64,000 nucleotides of DNA, taken from positions 14,043 through 78,042 of the forward strand of contig LCRX01000002.1 in assembly GCA_001004885.1 (NCBI GenBank). Direction: 5' to 3'. The translations under genes and the position numbers were made by a program. Of this stretch, positions 6,079 to 14,969 are shown one piece after another. Position 1 is the stretch's first letter. Every line of letters starts with the position of its first letter. Below the pieces are notes generated by a model. The model did no database searches. It was not told where the DNA came from and saw nothing but the letters and a program-made list of their open reading frames with translations. This DNA comes from Candidatus Magasanikbacteria bacterium GW2011_GWA2_56_11. Its GTDB lineage: Bacteria; Patescibacteriota; Patescibacteriia; Magasanikbacterales; UBA922.

Positions 6079-6101
6079 AAATCCCCTAGAGGGGATTTTT
6101 T
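6076..6101. terminator. Bidirectional hairpin terminator
   Basis: aaaaatcccctagaggggatttttt; overlaps the pyrF stop. Confidence 0.6.
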
Positions 6102-6856
6102 AGTGCTTCTTGATAAGCCTGCCAGCCGGCGGCGCGATAGTTTCGGGCGGCTCCTGCCGGGTCGGGCGCGGCGGTAATGCCGCGGCCGACAATAATAATA
6201 TCGCTGCCGCGCTCTCGGATGACCGCGTCCGGCGTAAGATAATTTTGGCCAAACCGGTCGCTGCCCGCGGCGAGCTGGACGCCAGGAGTAAGGTGGACAA
6301 ACGCCGGGTCGAGCTTCCGAGTGGCGATAAAACCGATAACAAATTCCGGGTATCGCCGGGCCATTTCCACGCTCGCGGCAGTGTACTCGCCGGTGGCGAG
6401 GTTGCCCTTGGGGCTCATTTCGGCGAGGAGGATGAGGGCGCGGCCGCGTTCCTCTCCGACGGTTTTCAGCGCCTCGATAATGCCCGGACCGGACACGGTG
6501 TGGGCGTTGACAATGTCGGCCCACTCGGCAATGCGGTAAATTCCTCCGCGGTACTGCTCCAAAACGGTCTGGCCGATGTCGGCAAACTTACGGTCTTCGA
6601 AAATAAGAAATTGGTGCCGGTCAGCCAAGGCTTTCAATTCCTTTGTCAGCGCGGGCGTGAAGTCGGCCACGATGTCGATGTGCGTCTTGAACAGGCAGAT
6701 CTCGGGACCGAGTCTTTCCGCCAGAGCCAGCAGTTCCGCGGCGGTGGTAACGTCGGCGGCGACGCATAAGTTGGTTTGTTTTTCTTCCATGAGCGCGAGC
6801 AGGCGCCGGGCGGCGGGGTTGGCCTGGGCTAGGGCGCGTTCGGCGTAAGTGGGCAT
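6086..6856 (-). CDS. pyrF: Orotidine 5'-phosphate decarboxylase (URA3-like type)
   Basis: [11 protein letters not shown]…[14 protein letters not shown] closely matches the eukaryote/type-2 ODCase signature. Confidence 0.9.
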
Positions 6857-6894: not shown

Positions 6895-7518
6895 TTAGAC
6901 TTCAGCCCGGCGCGGCGCCGGGGCTTGGTTTTTGTTGATGAACGTCTTTATTTGGTTGGCTTTTTCCGTCGCCAGATTGCCCGTTGTTTCCAACTCTTCG
7001 ATTAGTTCCGTAATTGTCATGACCGAGCGCAAACGGTAGCCCCTGTCTTCGATATATTTTTTTCCGCCTTGTTCGCGGTCGATAAGGACGATGATGTCTT
7101 TTACTATGAGACCTTCATTTTCGAGCGGCTCGACAGTCTCAAATACGCTTGCCCCGCTGGTTACCAGATCTTCGATAATGAGCACCGTTTGTCCCGGGGA
7201 GTAAGATCCCTCCAGCGCTTTTTTGGTGCCATAGTCCTTGACCTCCTTGCGCCGCATGATCATGGGTTTGGCGTGGGAGAGCGACATGGCGGTGGCAATC
7301 GGCAGGGCCGTATAGGGAACGCCGCAGATGAGGTCGAACTGAGCGTCCCGGGCCTGTTCCCACATCGCGTCGGCTACGCCCTGGAGGAGATCGGGGTGGG
7401 AGACGGTGAGCCTGAGATCAATATAGAGCGGGGAGATGAGGCCGCTTTTGAGCGTAAATTCGCCGAATTTAACGGCGCCGATGGCGTAGAGAGCCTGGAT
7501 AAGGTCCGGAGTAGACAT
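6895..7518 (-). CDS. pyrE: Orotate phosphoribosyltransferase
   Basis: [21 protein letters not shown] and PRPP-binding [14 protein letters not shown]. Confidence 0.9.
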
Positions 7519-7703: not shown

Positions 7704-8519
7704 TTAATACCTGATTTTTGTTCCGCTTTTGTCGCGGTGGTACGCGCCGAACTCGCTAATCCGGTTGGCCGTTTCGCGGTCTACAACCGGTCCCTCGACA
7801 CACATCCGAATGCCTAACGGGTCGACGCAACATTGTCCGCAGACGCCGAAGCCGCATTTCGTATAGCGTTCCAAGCTGATCTCGCACTCGACGTCGTGCT
7901 CGTTGCAGAGATCCAGCACCTTTTTTTCCATTAGTTCCGGACCGCAGGCGGCGATCAGGCGCGTCTGGGCGCCGGTCTCGAGCAGGAGCTCTTCCAAAAT
8001 TTCGGTTACGTACCCCCGGCGTCCGAGACTGCCGTCATCGGTGGCGATGTGGACCCGCAGGTTCGGAACCGTCTTGACTCTCTGGGCGAAAAGAAGGAGA
8101 CCCTCGGTCTTGGCGCCCAGGCAAAAATCCACCTGGGCGCCGGCCGCGGCGGCTCGTTCGGCTAACAGGGCGAGCGGACCGGCACCGTAACCGCCCCCGA
8201 TTGTGATGTAGTGTCTGTCTTTTTTCACGGAAAACGGATGACCGTAAGGGCCGGTGATTCCGACTCGATCGCCTGGTTGGAGGGAGACTAGAGCCTGGCT
8301 TAAAGGACCGACGGGAAAAACCGTGAAGCCGAATTCGCGCCCGTTGTCGTAGGCCACGGAAAACGGTTTCTGGTCTATCCCCGGCAGCCAGGCCATAACG
8401 AACTGCCCTGGCTGGCTGTGGAGCGCGTGGTCAAAATACAATGTTTTTGCCTGCGCATTTTCCGGTTGGACGCGAGCGATCGGCAGGAGAAGCGGGGAGT
8501 CCATAAAGTTTAGGGACAA
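7704..8519 (-). CDS. pyrK: Dihydroorotate dehydrogenase electron-transfer subunit
   Basis: FAD/NAD-binding fold and C-terminal CGFGVCGQCC 2Fe-2S motif; adjacent to pyrD. Confidence 0.9.
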   Translation of the reverse strand: MSLNFMDSPLLLPIARVQPENAQAKTLYFDHALHSQPGQFVMAWLPGIDQKPFSVAYDNGREFGFTVFPVGPLSQALVSLQPGDRVGITGPYGHPFSVKKDRHYITIGGGYGAGPLALLAERAAAAGAQVDFCLGAKTEGLLLFAQRVKTVPNLRVHIATDDGSLGRRGYVTEILEELLLETGAQTRLIAACGPELMEKKVLDLCNEHDVECEISLERYTKCGFGVCGQCCVDPLGIRMCVEGPVVDRETANRISEFGAYHRDKSGTKIRY

Positions 8520-9430
8520 GCGCGGTGGGCCGCGCCGCGGATTTCATCGAGGGTTTTTATACCCTCCTCGGCCATTATACCCTCCATTTCCGCTCTTATT
8601 TTTTTAAAAACTTCGGCGCCGCGGTAGTAAACGGCCGAGCCGATGCCGACGAGCGTCGCTCCGGCCATGATCATGGCCAAGGCGTCTTCGCCCGTAGTAA
8701 CGCCGCCGGTGCCGATAATCGGTATCCGCACGCGTTCGTAGATGTCGTAAACGCATTTAAGAGCGAGAGGAAAGAGCGCCGGACCGGAAACCCCGCCCTG
8801 TTTGTTGTGCAGAACCGGAGAGCGGGCGCGGACATTGATCGCCATACCGCTCACGGTATTGACAGCCGTGATCGCGTCGGCGCCGGCGGCTTCGGCCGCG
8901 GCGGCCAGGCCGGCTATGTTCCAGGCGTTGGGCGAAAGCTTTACGGAAACAGGTACGCGGGTGGCGGACTTCACCTGGCGGGTAATCGCCCCGATGGCGG
9001 CGGCCGAATAGGCGAATGGCTCGCCGAACTCGCGGCCGACGTTCGGACAGGAAAGATCCAGTTCGATAAGGTCGATCGGCGAAACGGAAACGGCCGCCGC
9101 GAGCTGCGCGAACTCATCGGCCGTGCCGGCAAAGATGCTGCCGATGAGCGGGGCCGCGGCGAGCTCTTTGTAGCGTCGCAATTCCTCTTTGCCCGCTTCA
9201 ATGCCGGGATTGGAAAGGCCCACAGCGTTGAGGAAGTATGTTTTCGTGCCGACCATGGTCGGATTCGGATGCCCGGCGCGGGGGGCAAGGGAGAGAGATT
9301 TTACGGTTACCCCGCCGGCGCCGTTTTCGACCGCGCGCGCCAGGCTCGAAGCGGCGGATCCCCAAACTCCGGAGGCTAGAATTAGCGGGTTTCCAAATTC
9401 AACTCCGCAAAAAGAAGTCGCGGAGATCAT
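8510..9430 (-). CDS. pyrD: Dihydroorotate dehydrogenase catalytic subunit (class 1B)
   Basis: NPLILASGVWG, LSCPNV, IIGTGGV motifs. Confidence 0.9.
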   Translation of the reverse strand: MISATSFCGVEFGNPLILASGVWGSAASSLARAVENGAGGVTVKSLSLAPRAGHPNPTMVGTKTYFLNAVGLSNPGIEAGKEELRRYKELAAAPLIGSIFAGTADEFAQLAAAVSVSPIDLIELDLSCPNVGREFGEPFAYSAAAIGAITRQVKSATRVPVSVKLSPNAWNIAGLAAAAEAAGADAITAVNTVSGMAINVRARSPVLHNKQGGVSGPALFPLALKCVYDIYERVRIPIIGTGGVTTGEDALAMIMAGATLVGIGSAVYYRGAEVFKKIRAEMEGIMAEEGIKTLDEIRGAAHRACP

Positions 9431-10383
9431 AAGATTTCCTTTTCTTTCTCCAAGAGCCAGACCAACATAGCTTTTTGCATGTGCAGGCGATTTTCGGCTT
9501 GGTCGAAGATAATTGAATGCGGATGATCGATCGCGTCGCGCGAGATTTCGTAGCCGACGTGGCAGGGCATACAGTGCATAATCCTGGCCGCCGGCGCGTA
9601 ACGTTCAACCGCCTCGGCATTAAGCTGGTAGGGCGCGAACACCCGCAGCCGCCGTTCGTATTCTGATTTGAATTCCGGCCTGACCTGCCCGTTCTCGAAG
9701 AACTCCATATTCATCCACGTATCGGTGTGGACGAAGTCGGCGTCGGTTAACGCTTCGGCCAGATCGGGCGTGCGTTTGACAAGTCCGGTAGCCCCGGCCA
9801 CGGCGTTCAGCTCGGGGTCGACGCTGTTCTTGTCCGCCTCCGGAGCGGCTATGGCTACCTTGATTCCGAGCTTGGCGGCGGCGAGCATGAGCGTATTCGA
9901 AACATTGTTTTCAATGCCGAGCCAGGCGATTTTTTTCACTTTTTCAATCCCGCCGGCCGCTTCAGACATAGTCAACAGGTCGCTTAGGGCCTGGGCCGGA
10001 TGGTATTTTTCGCTGCAAGCGTCGATGACGGGTACGCGGTCGTAGGCCGCGGCAGTAATGACGTCGGCTGCTTTTTGCGCGCGAAACATCAGGATTTGCC
10101 CGAAGCGCATTACGGCCTGGATCTCGTCGCGAAAGTCGGTAAGGGAAAACTGGGTGGTTTTGGCGTCGAGAAATATGGCGTGTCCGCCAAGCTCGGTCAT
10201 GCCCGCCTCGAATGACAGCCGGGTGCGGGTGGAGGTTTTCTGGAACAGCATGATAAGCGTTTGGCGCGGCAGGTAGTTCGTCGGCTCCCCGGCTTGCCGC
10301 CGCCGTTTGATCGTTTCCGCCAGTTTGAGGAGGGTCAGGAGGTCGTCCCGGGTTTGTTCTTTGAGCGATATGAGATGGCGCAT
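9427..10383 (-). CDS. Ornithine-carbamoyltransferase-family protein with a divergent substrate loop, embedded in the pyr operon
   Basis: STRTR, HPAQALSDLLTM, HCMPCH and C-terminal IIFDQAENRLHMQKAM all OTC-like; the canonical DxWxSMG ornithine loop reads DTWMNMEF; ATGA overlap with pyrD. Confidence 0.75.
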   Translation of the reverse strand: MRHLISLKEQTRDDLLTLLKLAETIKRRRQAGEPTNYLPRQTLIMLFQKTSTRTRLSFEAGMTELGGHAIFLDAKTTQFSLTDFRDEIQAVMRFGQILMFRAQKAADVITAAAYDRVPVIDACSEKYHPAQALSDLLTMSEAAGGIEKVKKIAWLGIENNVSNTLMLAAAKLGIKVAIAAPEADKNSVDPELNAVAGATGLVKRTPDLAEALTDADFVHTDTWMNMEFFENGQVRPEFKSEYERRLRVFAPYQLNAEAVERYAPAARIMHCMPCHVGYEISRDAIDHPHSIIFDQAENRLHMQKAMLVWLLEKEKEIL

Positions 10384-10446
10384 AGAGAAAGATTAGCTTA
10401 ATAGTTAAGTTAAGCGTGATCGGATTTTACCCGGCGTTATTTAGCT

Positions 10447-10545
10447 GGGTAAGCGATGGTAATTTAATTTTTTGCCTGCGGAGTAATACCCGCTTCGCTC
10501 TCGCACTCGTCCTCGGCGAAAAATTAAATTACCATCGCTTACCTA
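10447..10545. repeat. Long inverted repeat (25-29-bp arms, 38-bp loop) between pyrC and the OTC-like gene
   Basis: gggtaagcgatggtaatttaattttttgcc … ggcgaaaaattaaattaccatcgcttaccta. Confidence 0.8.
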
Positions 10546-10582
10546 GTCGCGACCGGAGAATCCGGTGGGCGACGGTCGGATA

Positions 10583-11719
10583 TTATAATCTAGAAAGATC
10601 ATGCTGTCGTCCGCGGCAGGTGACGGCGACCGGGAACCCCCGCAATTGCCAGCCGGCAAAGGGCGACCAGGCACATTTGGTTTTTAGGCGTTCAGGCTCG
10701 ATCGGGCGCACGTCGTCAAGGTCAATCGTAACGGTATCGTCATTGGGTGGCAGGCGGAAGATGCGTTCGGGGTTAGTCCGGGTAAGCCTGATAAGTTCGT
10801 CTTTGGCCAGCCGCCCTTCTTCGAGGGCGGTAACGAGGAGCGGCAGCGCAGTTTCGATGCCGGGCACTCCCGAAGGGGCCTCGCCGTAGGGCCGGGTTTT
10901 TTCCGATAGGGTGTGCGGCGCGTGATCCGTGCCGACAGTATCTATGGTGCCGTCGTGAATACCGTCCCAAAGCGCCGCCTGATCCTGATTCTGCCTGAGG
11001 GGCGGGTTCATTTGCGCCTGGGTGCCGAGACGCGAATAAGCTGACACGTTCAAAAACAAATGATGCGGGGTAGCTTCGGCATAGACGCGAAGGCCTTGGC
11101 GTTTGGCGGCGCGTACGGCCGCCACTTCCGCTTTCGTGGACACGTGGAGAATGTAGAGCCGCGTGCCGTAGTCGCGGGCGAAATTGAGCGCTTTTTGGAC
11201 CGCTCTGAGCGCTACCGCCGGCCCCCGAATGCGGGAATGGTCAGCGACGGCGGGGGTCGGGAAACGACGCTGGCGCCGCGCCATTTCCGCTTCGTCCTCG
11301 GCATGGACCGCGAGCAGAATGTCCAAGCGCGCGCACTCGGCAAATATGCGCCGTTGCGTTTCTTCATCGGCCACCGTGAGTCCGCCGGTGCTCGAACCCA
11401 TAAAGAGCTTGACAGCCGTAATTTCGTTTTTGACGTGTTTGAATTCACCCCAGTTTTTTTCCGTGGCGCCGAAATACAGACGATAGCGCAGCGGCAGTCC
11501 GCCGCTTTGGAGCTGGCTCTCGATAAGTTCGCGTTTGGAATAGAGCCGGGCGCGGGATATAACCGGCGGATCATTATTGGGCATGTCGAGGACGGTCGTT
11601 ACTCCGCCCGACAGGGCGGCCCTGGCCCCGCTGGCCCAATCTTCCTTGTGGGCCGCGCCCGGCACGCGGAAATGGACATGGGGATCGATAAGAGCGGGCA
11701 GGGTAAGCAAACGCGTCAT
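10583..11719 (-). CDS. pyrC: Dihydroorotase
   Basis: LIDPHVHFR metal-binding motif and amidohydrolase fold; start at MTRLLTL, 4-nt overlap with pyrI. Confidence 0.85.
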   Translation of the reverse strand: MTRLLTLPALIDPHVHFRVPGAAHKEDWASGARAALSGGVTTVLDMPNNDPPVISRARLYSKRELIESQLQSGGLPLRYRLYFGATEKNWGEFKHVKNEITAVKLFMGSSTGGLTVADEETQRRIFAECARLDILLAVHAEDEAEMARRQRRFPTPAVADHSRIRGPAVALRAVQKALNFARDYGTRLYILHVSTKAEVAAVRAAKRQGLRVYAEATPHHLFLNVSAYSRLGTQAQMNPPLRQNQDQAALWDGIHDGTIDTVGTDHAPHTLSEKTRPYGEAPSGVPGIETALPLLVTALEEGRLAKDELIRLTRTNPERIFRLPPNDDTVTIDLDDVRPIEPERLKTKCAWSPFAGWQLRGFPVAVTCRGRQHDLSRL

Positions 11720-11721
11720 AA

Positions 11722-12174
11722 TTAGCGCAGAGAAACTTCTTCGTGGGAAAATATTTTTTCGCAATAGTGGCAGCGCAGCCGCAGGCGCTCGCCATCCGCC
11801 AGCGGGTAGAACGTGCTCGGGGTTCTCTCGTGGTTGGTAATACAGCGAGAGTTGGGGCAAATGACGAGTTCGGTGAAAACCGGCGGGACGGCGACGGTAA
11901 ATTTTTTTACCACCTTGTGTTCGCGTATGATGTTGATTGTGGCGGTGGGTGCGAAGAGACAAACTTGATTGACTTCGCTCGGGCTGAGCTCCTTGTGCTC
12001 GATTTTAACGATGTCCTTGCGGCCCAGTCTTTTGCTGGTGAAATGGGTGCCCATGGTAAGGACCGTGTTCATGTCGTTTAATTTAAGGGCGGCAATCAGC
12101 CGCAGTCCTTTGCCGTTGGGGATGTGGTCTATGACCGTGCCGTCCTTGATGGCAAAAACTTTATAGGCGCGCAT
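11722..12174 (-). CDS. pyrI: Aspartate carbamoyltransferase regulatory subunit
   Basis: ~150 aa with C-terminal Zn CxxC…CxxC (CPNSRC…CHYC); adjacent to pyrB. Confidence 0.88.
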   Translation of the reverse strand: MRAYKVFAIKDGTVIDHIPNGKGLRLIAALKLNDMNTVLTMGTHFTSKRLGRKDIVKIEHKELSPSEVNQVCLFAPTATINIIREHKVVKKFTVAVPPVFTELVICPNSRCITNHERTPSTFYPLADGERLRLRCHYCEKIFSHEEVSLR

Positions 12175-12233: not shown

Positions 12234-13154
12234 CTAGAGTTTCCCCAGCACCAGCCCCAGCAGAGCCTGCCGCACATAGAGTCCGTTGGCGGCCTGCTCG
12301 AAATAGTAGGCGTACGGCGTACTGTCTACCGCCGGACTCAGTTCATTGACCCGCGGCAAAGGATGCAGAACGCGCAAATTCGGTTTTGCTTTCGCCAGGA
12401 GCGGCACGTCGAGGACATAGAGATTTTTGGCTTTTTCGTATTCGGAGATGTCGGAGAAACGCTCTTTTTGAATCCGCGTCAGGTAGAGGATGTCCACCTT
12501 GTTTACTACCTCCTCAATAGTTTTTTTGAGGCTGTATTTTATGCCCGCTTCACGCAATTGTTCAAGGAGATGATCGGGCATCTGCAGAAAATCCGGGGCG
12601 ACGAAGTAGAATGTCGGCTGGAAATGGATAAGCGCCTGGGCCAGAGAGTGGACGGTACGTCCGTATTTAAGGTCGCCGACCATGGCAATGGACAAATTGG
12701 TCAGTCTTTTTTGGCATTCCCGGATGGTAAATAGGTCGAGCAGAGTCTGCGTCGGGTGTTGGTTGGCGCCGTCGCCGCCGTTGATGATAGGCTTTTCAGT
12801 CGCCTCGGCTGCCCGCCGGGCGGCGCCGTCCAGGGGATGGCGCATGGTGATGACGTCCGCGTACTGGCCGATAATCCGGATGCTGTCGTACAAGGTTTCG
12901 CCTTTGGTCGCGGAGGAGACGCCAGGATCGGCAAAACCGATAACGCTCCCGCCCAGGCGCTGCATGGCCGTCTCGAAAGATAGCCGTGTTCTGGTCGAGG
13001 GCTCGAAAAAACAGCTGCCCATGACGCAGCCCTTGAGGAGCTCCGGCTCCGGCGCACGCTTGAGTTTTTCGGCCTGGTTCAAGACCAGAAGGATTTCTTT
13101 TTTGTTGAGCTCTTTGATAGAGATGATGTCTCTGCCGGTAAATCCGGTTGGCAT
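12234..13154 (-). CDS. pyrB: Aspartate carbamoyltransferase catalytic subunit
   Basis: [13 protein letters not shown] and LGGSVIGF motifs. Confidence 0.9.
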
Positions 13155-13326: not shown

Positions 13327-14895
13327 TTATTTGTCGAGTTCGGCACGCAGGAGTTTTTCCACCACTGCCGGCTCGGCGCCGCCCTCCGTGGCTTTCATTA
13401 CCATGCCTTTGAGGAAGTGGAAAACCGGTTCTTTCCCGGCCCGGTATTGCTCTACCTGCGCGGGATAGCTATTAATGACCGCCGATATTATGGCCGCTAG
13501 AGCGACCTCGTCGTTTATTTGGCCATAGCCCTTTTCTTCCATAATATGGGTGGGATCTATATCTGTGCCGGCGGCGACCATTTCGGCCAGAATTTTGGTG
13601 GCGCCGCCCGCATTTATGCGGCCGGCGTAGAGCAGCGCCACGAGTTCGGCAAAATTTTCCGGCGAGACTTTCAGGCGGCGGATATCTTTTTTATGTTCGT
13701 GCAAAAGACCCAGGAGTTTGTTCGTGAGCCAATTGCCGGCCAGCCGGGCGATTTTTGCCTTTTTTTGTTCCTTGACGTCGCCAGTATCAGACGCGGTTTC
13801 GTCCAGGCTGCATACCCAGTCAATAATTTCAGACATCACCGCATCGGTATAGTCGGAGAGAAACTTGTCGTCGGTGAGGATTTTGGCATCGGAGTAGGAA
13901 AAGCCGTATTCTTCGCGGAAGCGGGCGCGCCGCGCCGCCGGCAGCTCTGGGAGCAGGCTGTCGCCCGCGAGCGCTAGCGGGTGGAAAGGAGGAATGTCGG
14001 GTTCCGGGAAGTACCGATAGTCGGCGGCGTTTTCTTTGGCGCGTTGGGGCAGAGTTTCGCCGGTGTCCTCGTCCCAGCCGCGCGTCTCCTGAGGCCAGCT
14101 TTCGCCGGCCCCGATCAACCGGGTTTGGCGACCGATTTCAAACTCGATGGCCCGCTCCACGGCCCGGAATGAGTTGATGTTTTTAACTTCGACCTTGTTG
14201 TTGAGGCGGCAGCCGCCGAGCGGCCGGACTGCGCCCGATGCGATTTCAAAACTGCCGGCCGCCTGAACCGAAATATTGGCTTCAACGCGCATTTGTCCTT
14301 TCTCCATATCGGCATCGCTGACGCCCAGGTAACGCAGGATGGTTTGCAGTTCCTGGGCGAAAGTTTTGGCCTCAAGCGCGGTTTTGAAATCCGGGTCGGT
14401 AACAATTTCGACGAGCGGCGCGCCGGAGCGGTTGAAATCCACGAGCGTGGCGCCGTCTTGGTCGTGGAGCAGCCGGGCGGTATCTTCTTCCAAATGCGCC
14501 CGGCGGATGCCGATCTCTGCCTCATCCCGGGTGTTCGTTTCCAGGGGGAAGGCGAGGGTTAGCGTTCCCCGTTCGGCTATCGGTTCGTCATACTGCGATA
14601 TTTGGTAGCCTTTGGGCAAGTCCGGGTAAAAGTAATGTTTGCGGTCGAATTTGGACAGCTCGCGGATAGAACATCCGAGAGCGCGGCCTACCTTGACGGC
14701 GGCGACGATGGCCGCCCGGTTCGGCACCGGAAGAGTACCCGGATGCGCCAGACAGACCGGACAAACATGGCGGTTGGGTTCGCCCGCCCCCGGGTCGTTC
14801 GAACAGGAGCAGAACATCTTGCTCTTTGTATTCAGTTCGACGTGGATTTCCAGGCCGATAATCGGCACGAGGGTAGGAATAGGGAGGTGGCTCAT
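13327..14895 (-). CDS. gatB: Asp/Glu-tRNA(Asn/Gln) amidotransferase subunit B
   Basis: IGLEIHVELNTKSKMFCSC…HVCPVCL and C-terminal GatB/YqeY domain; start at MSHLPIP. Confidence 0.9.
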   Translation of the reverse strand: MSHLPIPTLVPIIGLEIHVELNTKSKMFCSCSNDPGAGEPNRHVCPVCLAHPGTLPVPNRAAIVAAVKVGRALGCSIRELSKFDRKHYFYPDLPKGYQISQYDEPIAERGTLTLAFPLETNTRDEAEIGIRRAHLEEDTARLLHDQDGATLVDFNRSGAPLVEIVTDPDFKTALEAKTFAQELQTILRYLGVSDADMEKGQMRVEANISVQAAGSFEIASGAVRPLGGCRLNNKVEVKNINSFRAVERAIEFEIGRQTRLIGAGESWPQETRGWDEDTGETLPQRAKENAADYRYFPEPDIPPFHPLALAGDSLLPELPAARRARFREEYGFSYSDAKILTDDKFLSDYTDAVMSEIIDWVCSLDETASDTGDVKEQKKAKIARLAGNWLTNKLLGLLHEHKKDIRRLKVSPENFAELVALLYAGRINAGGATKILAEMVAAGTDIDPTHIMEEKGYGQINDEVALAAIISAVINSYPAQVEQYRAGKEPVFHFLKGMVMKATEGGAEPAVVEKLLRAELDK

Positions 14896-14969
14896 ATGCG
14901 CAGAGTTTACCACGCCGGCCGCGCTATTGAAAAGACCCTGGGCCAAGCGGCACGGGGTCTTTTTTGGTT

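What the first reader, a model, noticed from the sequence alone, without database searches (positions are those of the whole stretch)
9427..10383. Divergent OTC-family carbamoyltransferase embedded in the pyrimidine operon between pyrC and pyrD
The operon already encodes a canonical ATCase (pyrB, with FFEPSTRTR and HPLP) plus pyrI. This additional gene keeps the OTC-type hallmarks: STRTR, HPAQ, HCMP and a C-terminus nearly identical to E. coli ArgI (IIFDQAENRLHMQKAM vs IVFDQAENRMHTIKAV). The ornithine-recognition loop DxWxSMG is replaced by DTWMNMEF. A transcarbamylase with an altered second-substrate loop, translationally coupled to pyrD (ATGA overlap), suggests an unusual substrate or a regulatory/inactive paralogue tied to pyrimidine synthesis.
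Basis: partly seen in the sequence, partly recalled or inferred. Interest (0 to 1): 0.6.

Follow-up and report, generated by a model that had tools for sequence, protein, structure and literature searches.

The report
Variant-loop ornithine carbamoyltransferase inside pyrimidine operon
The extra carbamoyltransferase in this pyrimidine operon is most likely a genuine ornithine/citrulline enzyme from a subfamily confined to ultra-small bacteria and archaea, and it may stand in for the missing carbamoyl-phosphate synthetase.

Summary
A 318-aa OTC-branch carbamoyltransferase ("X") lies on the minus strand at 9427-10383, between pyrC and pyrD. It overlaps pyrD by ATGA and carries DTWMNME in place of DxxxSMG.

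The inference of an unusual substrate or inactive paralogue is not supported. X belongs to a tight family (65-79% identity) found in Patescibacteria (CPR) and in MAGs labelled DPANN. The variant loop is shared with a wider "[DN]ME-loop" clade whose members sit in ordinary arginine operons (argJ-argB-argD-argG-argH).

In 80 related loci, X's partners all handle citrulline or carbamoyl phosphate (CP):
- the pyr operon (about 30 loci)
- carbamate kinase (15)
- a probable arginine synthetase, ArcE (6)
- argG/argH (4)
- NodU-type carbamoyltransferase (6)

So X is most likely a real, reversible OTC.

This window and operon encode every step from CP to UMP but no CP source. Thermococcus kodakarensis, which lacks CPS, was shown in 2026 to get pyrimidine CP from ArcB. 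I therefore favour citrulline + Pi -> ornithine + CP, feeding PyrB. The direction is inferred, not shown, and some relatives carry carAB or argGH in the same operon.

Verdict: new variant of a known kind, moderate interest.

The parts
9427..10383 (-). X: 318-aa OTC-branch carbamoyltransferase of the variant-loop CPR/DPANN subfamily
   Evidence: ORF and translation. Pfam OTCace_N + OTCace. NCBIfam OTC models just below cut-off: 291 vs 306 and 275.3 vs 280.85. Best PDB sequence match is P. furiosus OTC 1a1s, E = 6e-61. AF2 model pLDDT 93.
10222..10245 (-). FQKTSTRT carbamoyl-phosphate motif, with the OTC-type Lys at the third position
   Evidence: invariant in the family
9703..9723 (-). DTWMNME, the variant of the DxxxSMG ornithine loop, followed by a 5-residue insertion relative to P. 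furiosus OTC
9565..9576 (-). HCMP, a variant of HCLP
9427..9430 (-). ATGA overlap of the X stop codon and the pyrD start codon
8510..9430 (-). pyrD, dihydroorotate dehydrogenase catalytic subunit
   Evidence: TIGR01037, 322 bits vs 270
7704..8519 (-). pyrK, electron-transfer subunit
   Evidence: NF000796, 262 vs 224
6895..7518 (-). pyrE (orotate phosphoribosyltransferase), assigned by sequence reading and by conserved operon position
   Evidence: Translation. Conserved after pyrK in related loci. Not scanned against a family library.
6086..6856 (-). pyrF (OMP decarboxylase), assigned by sequence reading and by operon position
   Evidence: Not scanned against a family library.
10448..10543 (-). 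Perfect 25-bp inverted repeat (arms 10448-10472 and 10519-10543) in the 199-nt pyrC-X spacer
   Evidence: (MFE -78.2 kcal/mol, z = -6.97); no Rfam match
10583..11719 (-). pyrC, dihydroorotase; likely start at Met82 of the listed ORF
11722..12174 (-). pyrI, ATCase regulatory subunit
12234..13154 (-). pyrB, canonical ATCase catalytic subunit
   Evidence: TIGR00670, 369 vs 237
13327..14946 (-). gatB-like gene directly upstream of pyrB. It marks the 5' edge of the pyr block, and there is no carAB between it and pyrB.
   Evidence: The same gatB-pyrB junction occurs in related loci.

Best explanation
X is a catalytically competent, reversible ornithine carbamoyltransferase (ornithine + carbamoyl phosphate <-> citrulline + Pi). 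It belongs to a distinct, strongly conserved subfamily of Patescibacteria (CPR) and DPANN-labelled genomes. In that subfamily the SMG ornithine loop is remodelled to [DN]ME plus a short insertion. In Candidatus Magasanikbacteria and relatives the gene is a fixed part of the pyr operon because it shares the carbamoyl-phosphate (CP) pool with PyrB.

In this genome the operon encodes every step from CP to UMP but no CP-forming enzyme. X therefore most likely runs in the phosphorolytic (ArcB) direction: imported or arginine-derived citrulline + Pi gives ornithine + CP, and PyrB uses the CP. On this reading X functionally replaces carbamoyl-phosphate synthetase, as ArcB does in Thermococcus kodakarensis.

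Shown: the family, the motifs, the fold, and the gene contexts in relatives.
Inferred: the substrate pair (I put this at about 0.8) and the direction (about 0.45 for CP supply; that figure is the confidence given for this explanation as a whole).
For: (1) OTC-branch identity.
- Best curated families are OTC: 291 and 275 bits, against 223 for putrescine CTase and 121 for ATCase.
- Best PDB sequence matches are OTCs.
- The AF2 model has pLDDT 93 and matches OTC/PTC structures at E ~1e-27.
- The following are invariant in 40 family members: Lys of FxKxSxRT, STRTR, Gln78, Arg101, HPxQ, Asn159/160, Asp221, Cys271 and Arg299.

(2) The loop variant is compatible with OTC function.
- X groups with other [DN]ME-loop proteins in NJ trees: X family 94.5%, X+P0124+P0146 98%, whole [DN]ME clade 66%.
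- P0275 lies in X'-argJ-argB-argD-argG-argH.
- P0128 lies in argB-argD-X'.
- P0124 lies in argG-argH-X'-M20 deacylase.
- P0127 passes the NCBIfam OTC equivalog NF011379, 445 vs 373.

(3) X's own neighbours in 80 genomes all touch citrulline or CP (unless stated).
- pyrB-pyrI-pyrC-X-pyrD-pyrK in about 30 loci.
- Carbamate kinase (TIGR00746, 388 vs 358) in 15 loci.
- An ArcE-like P-loop protein in 6 loci, in the order ArcE-CK-X. It is annotated 'predicted GTPase' or 'cDPG synthase' and folds like cDPG synthetase and LpxK. Those are the properties published for arginine synthetase TK2200 (PMC11032458).
- argG/argH in 4 loci.
- NodU/CmcH CP-dependent carbamoyltransferase in 6 loci.

(4) Direction.
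- The 64-kb window has no carA/carB, carbamate kinase, ArcE, argG/H or other transcarbamylase.
- gatB abuts pyrB here and in most related operons, so the operon itself has no CP source other than X.
- X occupies the slot between pyrC and pyrD/pyrK where Bacillus subtilis carries pyrAA/pyrAB (my own knowledge of that operon).
- X is translationally coupled to pyrD and fused to pyrC in L077.
- Precedent: in CPS-less T. kodakarensis, deleting arcB or arcE causes pyrimidine auxotrophy, and a heterologous CPS rescues it (PMC13260591).
Against: - No enzymology exists for this family or for any [DN]ME-loop relative. The OTC assignment rests on context and conservation.
- X fails the literal DxxxSMG and HCLP signatures. 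It also falls just under both general NCBIfam OTC cut-offs.
- Direction is unresolved. Some operons that contain X also carry carA-carB (L015, L048, L063, L077) or carbamate kinase (L041, L065), which would make a CP-supplying X redundant. Others carry argG/argH (L071, L048, L007), which fits an anabolic ArgF equally well.
- Only 64 kb of this genome was visible, so carAB, arcC or arcE may lie elsewhere.
- No arginine deiminase or ArcE was found in the window to provide citrulline.
- The ArcE assignment was not tested directly against the TK2200 sequence.
Confidence: 0.45

Rival explanations
1. X is the lineage's anabolic ArgF. It draws CP made elsewhere (CarAB or carbamate kinase) to convert ornithine to citrulline for arginine synthesis through ArgG/ArgH or ArcE. 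It sits in the pyr operon only because both branches share one CP pool.
For: - argG-argH lie in the same operon in L071, argH-carA-carB-pyrB...X in L048, and argG-X-pyrD in L007.
- carAB lies upstream of pyrB in four X-containing operons.
- The nearest loop-variant relatives are in arginine biosynthesis operons.
- ArcE is reversible and supports arginine synthesis from citrulline in vivo (PMC11032458).
Against: - Most X-containing pyr operons, including this one, show no carAB, argG or argH nearby.
- No ornithine-forming genes (argJ/B/C/D) were seen in the window or recurrently next to X. The neighbour clusters found in three or more of the 80 loci and identified here include none.
- The CPR carB's closest named relatives are Chlamydiota and Verrucomicrobia at 67-68% identity, which suggests sporadic acquisition.
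- 15 loci pair X with carbamate kinase, the classical catabolic partner.
Confidence: 0.3
2. X has a different second substrate. It forms or phosphorolyses a ureido compound other than citrulline, for example a carbamoylated diamine or polyamine or another basic amino acid. The extra acidic residues around the second-substrate site (Asp121, Glu158, Asp/Asn225, Glu227) would select for it.
For: - DxxxSMG and HCLP are not met. The review of the family treats the 240's loop as the specificity determinant (PMC4581275).
- X is below the OTC HMM cut-offs.
- X forms a single isolated 50%-identity cluster. The next full-length relative is only 47% identical.
- Foldseek ranks putrescine carbamoyltransferase structures on a par with OTC.
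- An Orn/DAP-type PLP decarboxylase follows CK-X in L002 and L023.
Against: - Most of these substitutions are shared with relatives in arginine operons: Cys for Leu before HPxQ, loss of the GDG Asp, and the [DN]ME loop.
- The PTC signatures are absent (Gln in FxQxSxRT, the (Y/W)(G/W)(V/L/I) loop, the C-terminal extension), and TIGR04384 scores 223 against a cut-off of 500.
- The ornithine-binding Asp221, Asn160 and Lys49 are invariant.
- The ArcE-CK-X and argG/H contexts call for citrulline.
Confidence: 0.12
3. X is a non-catalytic or regulatory paralogue. It acts as a trimeric scaffold that activates or organises PyrC (as ATCase does for dihydroorotase in Aquifex-type complexes), or as a sensor of CP or pyrimidine intermediates.
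For: X is adjacent to pyrC and fused to it in frame in L077. PyrB here pairs with PyrI and so may not be available to bind PyrC (inference from established ATCase classes).
Against: Every catalytic and CP-binding residue is invariant, and conservation is very high (mean column identity 76-78%). About half of the family members lie outside pyr operons, often next to carbamate kinase.
Confidence: 0.04
4. X is a second aspartate carbamoyltransferase.
For: Its position in the pyr operon. In L007, X follows argG and precedes pyrD with no pyrB in the stretch fetched.
Against: - X lacks FxExSTR, RxQxER and HPLP.
- The ATCase model scores 121 bits against 275-291 for OTC models.
- X is 28% identical to the window's own PyrB.
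- A canonical PyrB-PyrI pair is present.
Confidence: 0.02

Closest known systems
ArcB ornithine carbamoyltransferase of the arginine synthetase pathway (Thermococcus kodakarensis TK0871; P. furiosus OTC, PDB 1a1s)
   Same: - OTC fold and CP-binding residues. P. furiosus OTC is the best solved-structure sequence match.
- In relatives, X is clustered with carbamate kinase and an ArcE-like gene.
- In T. kodakarensis, which lacks CPS, ArcB supplies CP for pyrimidine synthesis (PMC13260591). That is the role proposed here.
   Different: - The Thermococcales enzymes carry the canonical DxxxSMG/HCLP motifs (1a1s alignment). X has DTWM[DN]ME plus a 5-residue insertion, and HCMP.
- X is physically inside the pyr operon, coupled to pyrD.
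- No ArcE or carbamate kinase is seen in this window.
NCBIfam NF011379 (PRK14804) 'ornithine carbamoyltransferase' and related [DN]ME-loop OTC-like proteins
   Same: - A shared remodelled loop (DxW x [DN] M E + insertion), Cys before HPxQ, and loss of the GDG Asp.
- The same clade in NJ trees.
- Some members sit in argJ-argB-argD-argG-argH operons.
   Different: - Only 35-47% identical to X.
- These proteins have HD[ML]P where X has HCMP.
- X scores 261 against a cut-off of 373 for this model.
- They were not seen in pyr operons.
Putrescine carbamoyltransferase (E. faecalis AgcB, PDB 4a8p/3txx)
   Same: It belongs to the OTC branch, is a catabolic partner of carbamate kinase, has a non-SMG 230's loop, and gives a top Foldseek match.
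   Different: - PTC has Gln in FxQxSxRT, a (Y/W)(G/W)(V/L/I) loop and a C-terminal helix of about 20 residues (PMC4581275). X has none of these.
- Sequence score is 136 bits against 209 for OTC.
Bacillus-type pyr operon with pyrAA/pyrAB (CPS) between pyrC and pyrK/pyrD
   Same: It is one operon covering CP to UMP, with the CP-supplying gene placed between pyrC and pyrK/pyrD. X occupies that slot here.
   Different: The gene in the slot is a transcarbamylase, not a CPS. This comparison rests on my own knowledge of the B. subtilis operon and was not tested here.

Membership tests
Transcarbamylase superfamily | SxRT, HPxQ and HxLP motifs plus the conserved beta4 Arg (PMC4581275) | tested here: met
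   STRTR 51-55, HPAQ 128-131, HCMP 270-273 (Leu to Met), Arg101. Pfam OTCace_N 127 bits and OTCace 135 bits.
Ornithine carbamoyltransferase (OTC) | Lys at the third position of FxKxSxRT | tested here: met
   FQKTSTRT; Lys49 is invariant in 40 family members.
Ornithine carbamoyltransferase (OTC) | DxxxSMG ornithine-binding loop | tested here: not met
   DTWMNME here and DTW[MI][DN]ME in the family. Asp and Met are kept; Ser becomes Asn/Asp and Gly becomes Glu; there is a 5-residue insertion.
Ornithine carbamoyltransferase (OTC) | HCLP motif | tested here: inconclusive
   HCMP. The OTC-typical Cys is kept and Leu is replaced by Met in all 120 homologues.
Ornithine carbamoyltransferase (OTC) | Asn167 (E. 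coli numbering) and the C-terminal ENR Arg | tested here: met
   Asn159/Asn160 and Arg299 are invariant. Aligned to E. coli ArgI.
Ornithine carbamoyltransferase (OTC) | Score above the curated NCBIfam cut-offs | tested here: not met
   NF001986, 291 vs 306; TIGR00658, 275.3 vs 280.85; NF011379, 260.6 vs 373. OTC models are nevertheless the best-scoring families.
Ornithine carbamoyltransferase (OTC) | Gene context with citrulline-forming or citrulline-consuming enzymes | tested here: met
   Seen in relatives, not in this window: ArcE-like-CK-X (6 loci), argG/argH (4 loci), carbamate kinase (15 loci).
Ornithine carbamoyltransferase (OTC) | Catalysis of ornithine + CP <-> citrulline + Pi | not testable with these tools
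   Needs enzymology or complementation.
Putrescine carbamoyltransferase | Gln in FxQxSxRT; (Y/W)(G/W)(V/L/I)x loop; C-terminal extension of about 20 residues; TIGR04384 cut-off of 500 | tested here: not met
   X has Lys in that position, an MNME loop, is 318 aa long and ends like an OTC. TIGR04384 scores 223.
Aspartate carbamoyltransferase | FxExSTR, RxQxER, HPLP | tested here: not met
   Absent from X and present in the window's PyrB.
Knotted transcarbamylases (AOTC, SOTC, YgeW) | Proline-rich loop and extended 120's loop; family HMMs | tested here: not met
   X matches YgeW models over residues 119-230 only, at 46-47 bits against cut-offs of 453-500. The AOTC model scores 130 vs 288. The alignment shows no extra loops.
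Dap/Dab carbamoyltransferases | HDLP and (T/S)RWQ(T/S)(T/M)G in place of DxxxSMG | tested here: not met
   X keeps Asp221 and has HCMP (criteria from PMC4581275).
Arginine synthetase (ArcE-ArcB-ArcC) pathway | ArcE and ArcC encoded together with ArcB | tested here: not met
   Neither an ArcE-like gene nor a carbamate kinase lies in the 64-kb window. The triad is present in L022, L033, L035, L049 and L050. The rest of this genome was not visible.

The most novel reading that the evidence does not exclude
X is not an ornithine enzyme. It would be a CPR/DPANN-specific phosphorylase or transferase for a different, probably more cationic, ureido compound. It would deliver CP directly to PyrB within a PyrB-PyrC-X assembly, as the pyrC-X fusion in L077 might suggest. 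Pyrimidine synthesis in these episymbionts would then depend on a host-derived carbamoylated metabolite not yet recognised as a CP donor.
Probability: 0.1. Interest if true: 0.75.

Novelty: new variant of a known kind. Interest (0 to 1): 0.38.

Why it matters
- The textbook signature used to tell OTCs from other transcarbamylases (DxxxSMG/HCLP) appears not to be universal. A whole clade with a [DN]ME loop sits in arginine operons, and curated HMM cut-offs miss the CPR/DPANN branch by a few bits.
- If X supplies CP, the de novo pyrimidine pathway of Magasanikbacteria-type CPR bacteria would run on citrulline or arginine obtained from outside, not on bicarbonate and ammonia. That would extend the 2026 Thermococcus result to a large group of ultra-small bacteria and give a concrete, testable host dependency.
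- ArcE-like, carbamate kinase and X genes occur together in CPR and DPANN-labelled genomes. This suggests the two-ATP arginine synthetase pathway is an energy source in organisms with very few known ways of making ATP.

Tried and rejected
- Rfam scans found nothing, either for the whole window (gathering thresholds) or for the pyrC-X spacer (E-value mode).
It was redone with database proteins only.
- The afdb50 fold library was unavailable. I therefore could not match the ArcE-like model directly to T. kodakarensis TK2200, and used the PDB library instead.
- I spent the last protein search on a CPR carB, hoping to see whether GW2011_GWA2_56_11 has one. carB is too conserved: the top 120 hits are 66-72% identical, the named ones are mostly Chlamydiota and Verrucomicrobia, and the question stays open.
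- Literature searches for a described CPR/DPANN OTC variant found only the canonical arginine deiminase system of Saccharibacteria.
- A Pfam scan of 67 same-strand neighbours in non-pyr loci gave no recurrent partner beyond those already found. An Orn/DAP-type decarboxylase appeared twice.
- Considered and rejected: putrescine CTase, ATCase, knotted AOTC/SOTC/YgeW, and Dap/Dab CTases (see the membership tests); and a pseudogene or inactive copy, since conservation is far too high.
Full report
**What is there.** The finding's coordinates hold one ORF on the minus strand (9427..10383, ATG start, 318 aa). It sits in a minus-strand block: gatB (13327-14946), pyrB (12234-13154), pyrI (11722-12174), pyrC (10583-11719), X, pyrD (8510-9430), pyrK (7704-8519), pyrE (6895-7518), pyrF (6086-6856). 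NCBIfam places pyrB, pyrI, pyrC, pyrD and pyrK above their curated cut-offs. pyrE and pyrF were assigned by reading the translations and by their conserved position in related operons.

X's stop and pyrD's start overlap as ATGA. Upstream, X is separated from pyrC by 199 nt containing a perfect 25-bp inverted repeat. The C-terminus does align with E. coli ArgI, at 29% identity overall.

**What kind of protein.** Pfam finds both transcarbamylase domains. The best curated families are OTC models, but X falls just short of them: 291 vs 306 and 275.3 vs 280.85. Putrescine CTase (223 vs 500), ATCase (121-126) and YgeW (46-47) are far behind. The best solved-structure sequence matches are OTCs, headed by P. 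furiosus 1a1s (E = 6e-61). An AlphaFold model built on 40 homologues is confident (pLDDT 93). It superposes equally well on OTC and putrescine CTase structures.

An identical protein is on record as 'ornithine carbamoyltransferase' from Candidatus Magasanikbacteria bacterium GW2011_GWA2_56_11.

**A tight family of its own.**
- The 120 nearest homologues are all 71-79% identical to X.
- They carry DTW[MI][DN]ME, HCMP-C-H-x-G-Y-E, G[IV]ENNV and IDACSEKYHP almost without exception.
- Among 1.84 billion representatives clustered at 50% identity, the family collapses into one full-length representative (P0121, 69%). The next full-length protein is only 47% identical.
- A scan of one genome per species found 157 stretches that encode a relative. 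The 80 best came from Magasanik-, Falkow-, Lipton-, Uhr-, Kerfeld-, Peregrini- and Paceibacteria and WWE3. Some also came from MAGs labelled Woesearchaeota, Nanoarchaeota and Bathyarchaeia, at 65-78% identity.
- Some records carry placeholder labels such as 'uncultured Gammaproteobacteria', and I do not trust those labels.

**Does the altered loop mean a new substrate?** Probably not.
- The proteins just outside the X family share the same remodelling. They have DxWx[DN]ME followed by an insertion, Cys instead of Leu before HPxQ, and loss of the Asp of GDG.
- In NJ trees the X family (94.5% bootstrap) joins P0124 and P0146 (98%), and then the HD[ML]P group (66%), next to the SMG-loop OTCs.
- These relatives occupy the argF position of ordinary arginine operons. 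P0275 lies in X'-argJ-argB-argD-argG-argH, P0128 in argB-argD-X', and P0124 in argG-argH-X'-M20 deacylase.
- P0127 passes NCBIfam's OTC equivalog NF011379 (445 vs 373).
- Within X, the residues that the family review names as ornithine ligands are invariant, except Ser235. Those ligands are Asp231, Asn167, Lys53 and Met236 in E. coli numbering (PMC4581275).

The literal DxxxSMG test fails, but the evidence says that rule is too narrow.

**X's own neighbours.** I called ORFs in the 80 loci and clustered them. I identified the recurrent clusters with Pfam and NCBIfam and checked them by tblastn.
- About 30 loci repeat this window's arrangement, pyrB-pyrI-pyrC-X-pyrD-pyrK(-pyrE-pyrF).
- In L077, pyrC and X form one 706-aa ORF.
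- Outside pyr operons the consistent partner is carbamate kinase (15 loci; TIGR00746, 388 vs 358).
- In six loci a 440-aa P-loop protein joins them, giving the order P-loop protein-CK-X. Sources annotate it 'predicted GTPase' or 'cyclic 2,3-diphosphoglycerate synthase'. It shows weak sequence similarity to cDPG synthetase. Its model matches cDPG synthetase and Aquifex LpxK. Michimori et al. describe the same properties for arginine synthetase ArcE (TK2200), which they found next to arcB/arcC in some genomes (PMC11032458). I could not compare it with TK2200 itself.
- Other contexts: NodU/CmcH-type CP-dependent carbamoyltransferase (6 loci); YgeW-CK-X (L043, L062); argG-argH-pyrB...X (L071); argH-carA-carB-pyrB...X (L048); argG-X-pyrD (L007); carA-carB upstream of pyrB (L015, L048, L063, L077); carbamate kinase between pyrI and pyrC (L041, L065); and an aspartase-like gene directly after X (L012, L029).

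Every recurrent partner makes or uses citrulline or carbamoyl phosphate. ArcE makes citrulline and ArgG consumes it. An enzyme that interconverts citrulline with ornithine + CP explains both contexts.

**How it most likely works here.** That X is a working OTC is the well-supported step; I put it at about 0.8. The direction is inferred.
- The window encodes every reaction from CP to UMP but no CP source. There is no carA/carB, carbamate kinase, ArcE-like gene, argG or argH, and no transcarbamylase other than X and PyrB in 64 kb.
- gatB abuts pyrB, so the operon has no room for a CP source upstream. The same is true in most related operons.
- X lies between pyrC and pyrD/pyrK, where Bacillus keeps its CPS genes (my own knowledge). 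It is translationally coupled to pyrD.
- A direct precedent now exists. T. kodakarensis lacks CPS. Deleting arcB or arcE makes it a pyrimidine auxotroph, deleting arcC does not, and a foreign CPS partly rescues growth (PMC13260591).

I therefore favour citrulline + Pi -> ornithine + CP -> PyrB, at about 0.45.

The main rival (about 0.3) is an ordinary anabolic ArgF sharing the CP pool. It is supported by the operons that also contain carAB or argG/argH. Both may be true in different genomes, because the reaction is reversible. A different substrate (about 0.12), a scaffold or regulator (about 0.04) and a second ATCase (about 0.02) are less likely, for the reasons given under the rival explanations.

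**What remains open.**
- No member of the [DN]ME-loop clade has been assayed, as far as my searches show.
- I could see only 64 kb of this genome. An attempt to learn whether it has carB failed because carB is too conserved for the hit list to discriminate.
- The source of citrulline is unknown, since the window holds no ArcE-like gene.

**Verdict.** This is a real gene and a real, conserved loop variant, but it is most likely an ornithine/citrulline enzyme and not a new chemistry. Three points are of interest:
- the OTC signature rule needs widening;
- the gene is a fixed member of the pyr operon in one CPR lineage, plausibly as a replacement for CPS;
- CPR/DPANN genomes appear to carry the recently discovered arginine synthetase pathway.

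I rate it a new variant of a known kind, with interest about 0.38.

Noticed in passing
window 10384-10582 (minus strand), arms 10448-10472 and 10519-10543: The 199-nt spacer between pyrC and X contains a perfect 25-bp inverted repeat with a 46-nt loop (MFE -78.2 kcal/mol, z = -6.97). It occurs once in the window and has no Rfam match. No U-run follows it, so it does not look like a plain intrinsic terminator. Long hairpins of unrelated sequence also fill the pyrC-X spacer in L003, L015, L031, L063, L065, L080 and L051. This may be a recurrent intra-operon processing or attenuation element.
   Followed up: partly
L022:5634-6956, L033:8945-10264, L050:5481-6800; also L035, L049, L054: A 440-aa P-loop protein lies next to carbamate kinase and X. 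It is about 70% conserved across CPR, Bathyarchaeia and Kapabacteria and is annotated 'predicted GTPase' or 'cDPG synthase'. Its fold matches cDPG synthetase and LpxK, as published for arginine synthetase ArcE. The 2024 paper's main text does not name CPR or DPANN among the lineages that carry ArcE.
   Followed up: partly
L026, L028, L040, L043, L045, L047: X-family genes 68-72% identical to the bacterial ones occur in MAGs labelled Woesearchaeota, Nanoarchaeota and Bathyarchaeia. This implies either cross-domain transfer between CPR and DPANN or binning and labelling errors. Several other records carry implausible placeholder labels ('uncultured Gammaproteobacteria', 'Methanosarcinales').
   Followed up: no
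L077:5195-7315: pyrC and X are joined in a single 706-aa ORF (…GWPIDITSNHY-MKHLISLKEQ…). Seen in one genome only. It could be a true fusion or a lost stop codon.
   Followed up: no
L041:4883-5821, L065:5651-6586; L029:9073-10251, L012:8958-10169: Other precursor-related genes are inserted in or next to the same operon: carbamate kinase between pyrI and pyrC, and an aspartate ammonia-lyase-like gene (NF008909, 470 vs 510) directly after X.
   Followed up: partly
L043:1021-2247 and L062:5816-7021: A YgeW-type knotted carbamoyltransferase (NF005538, 600 vs 453) lies in the order YgeW-carbamate kinase-X, so two transcarbamylases flank one kinase.
   Followed up: no
L029:7027-7956: A third, very divergent transcarbamylase (309 aa; FDSNSLRT, HPSQ, ADEWW, HCLP; best OTC model 214 vs 306) lies immediately upstream of X inside the pyr operon of one Magasanikbacteria genome.
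   Followed up: no
L015:710-3955: The carB found upstream of pyrB in some X-containing operons has Chlamydiota and Verrucomicrobia proteins among its closest named relatives (67-68% identity). This hints that carAB was acquired sporadically in these CPR genomes.
   Followed up: no
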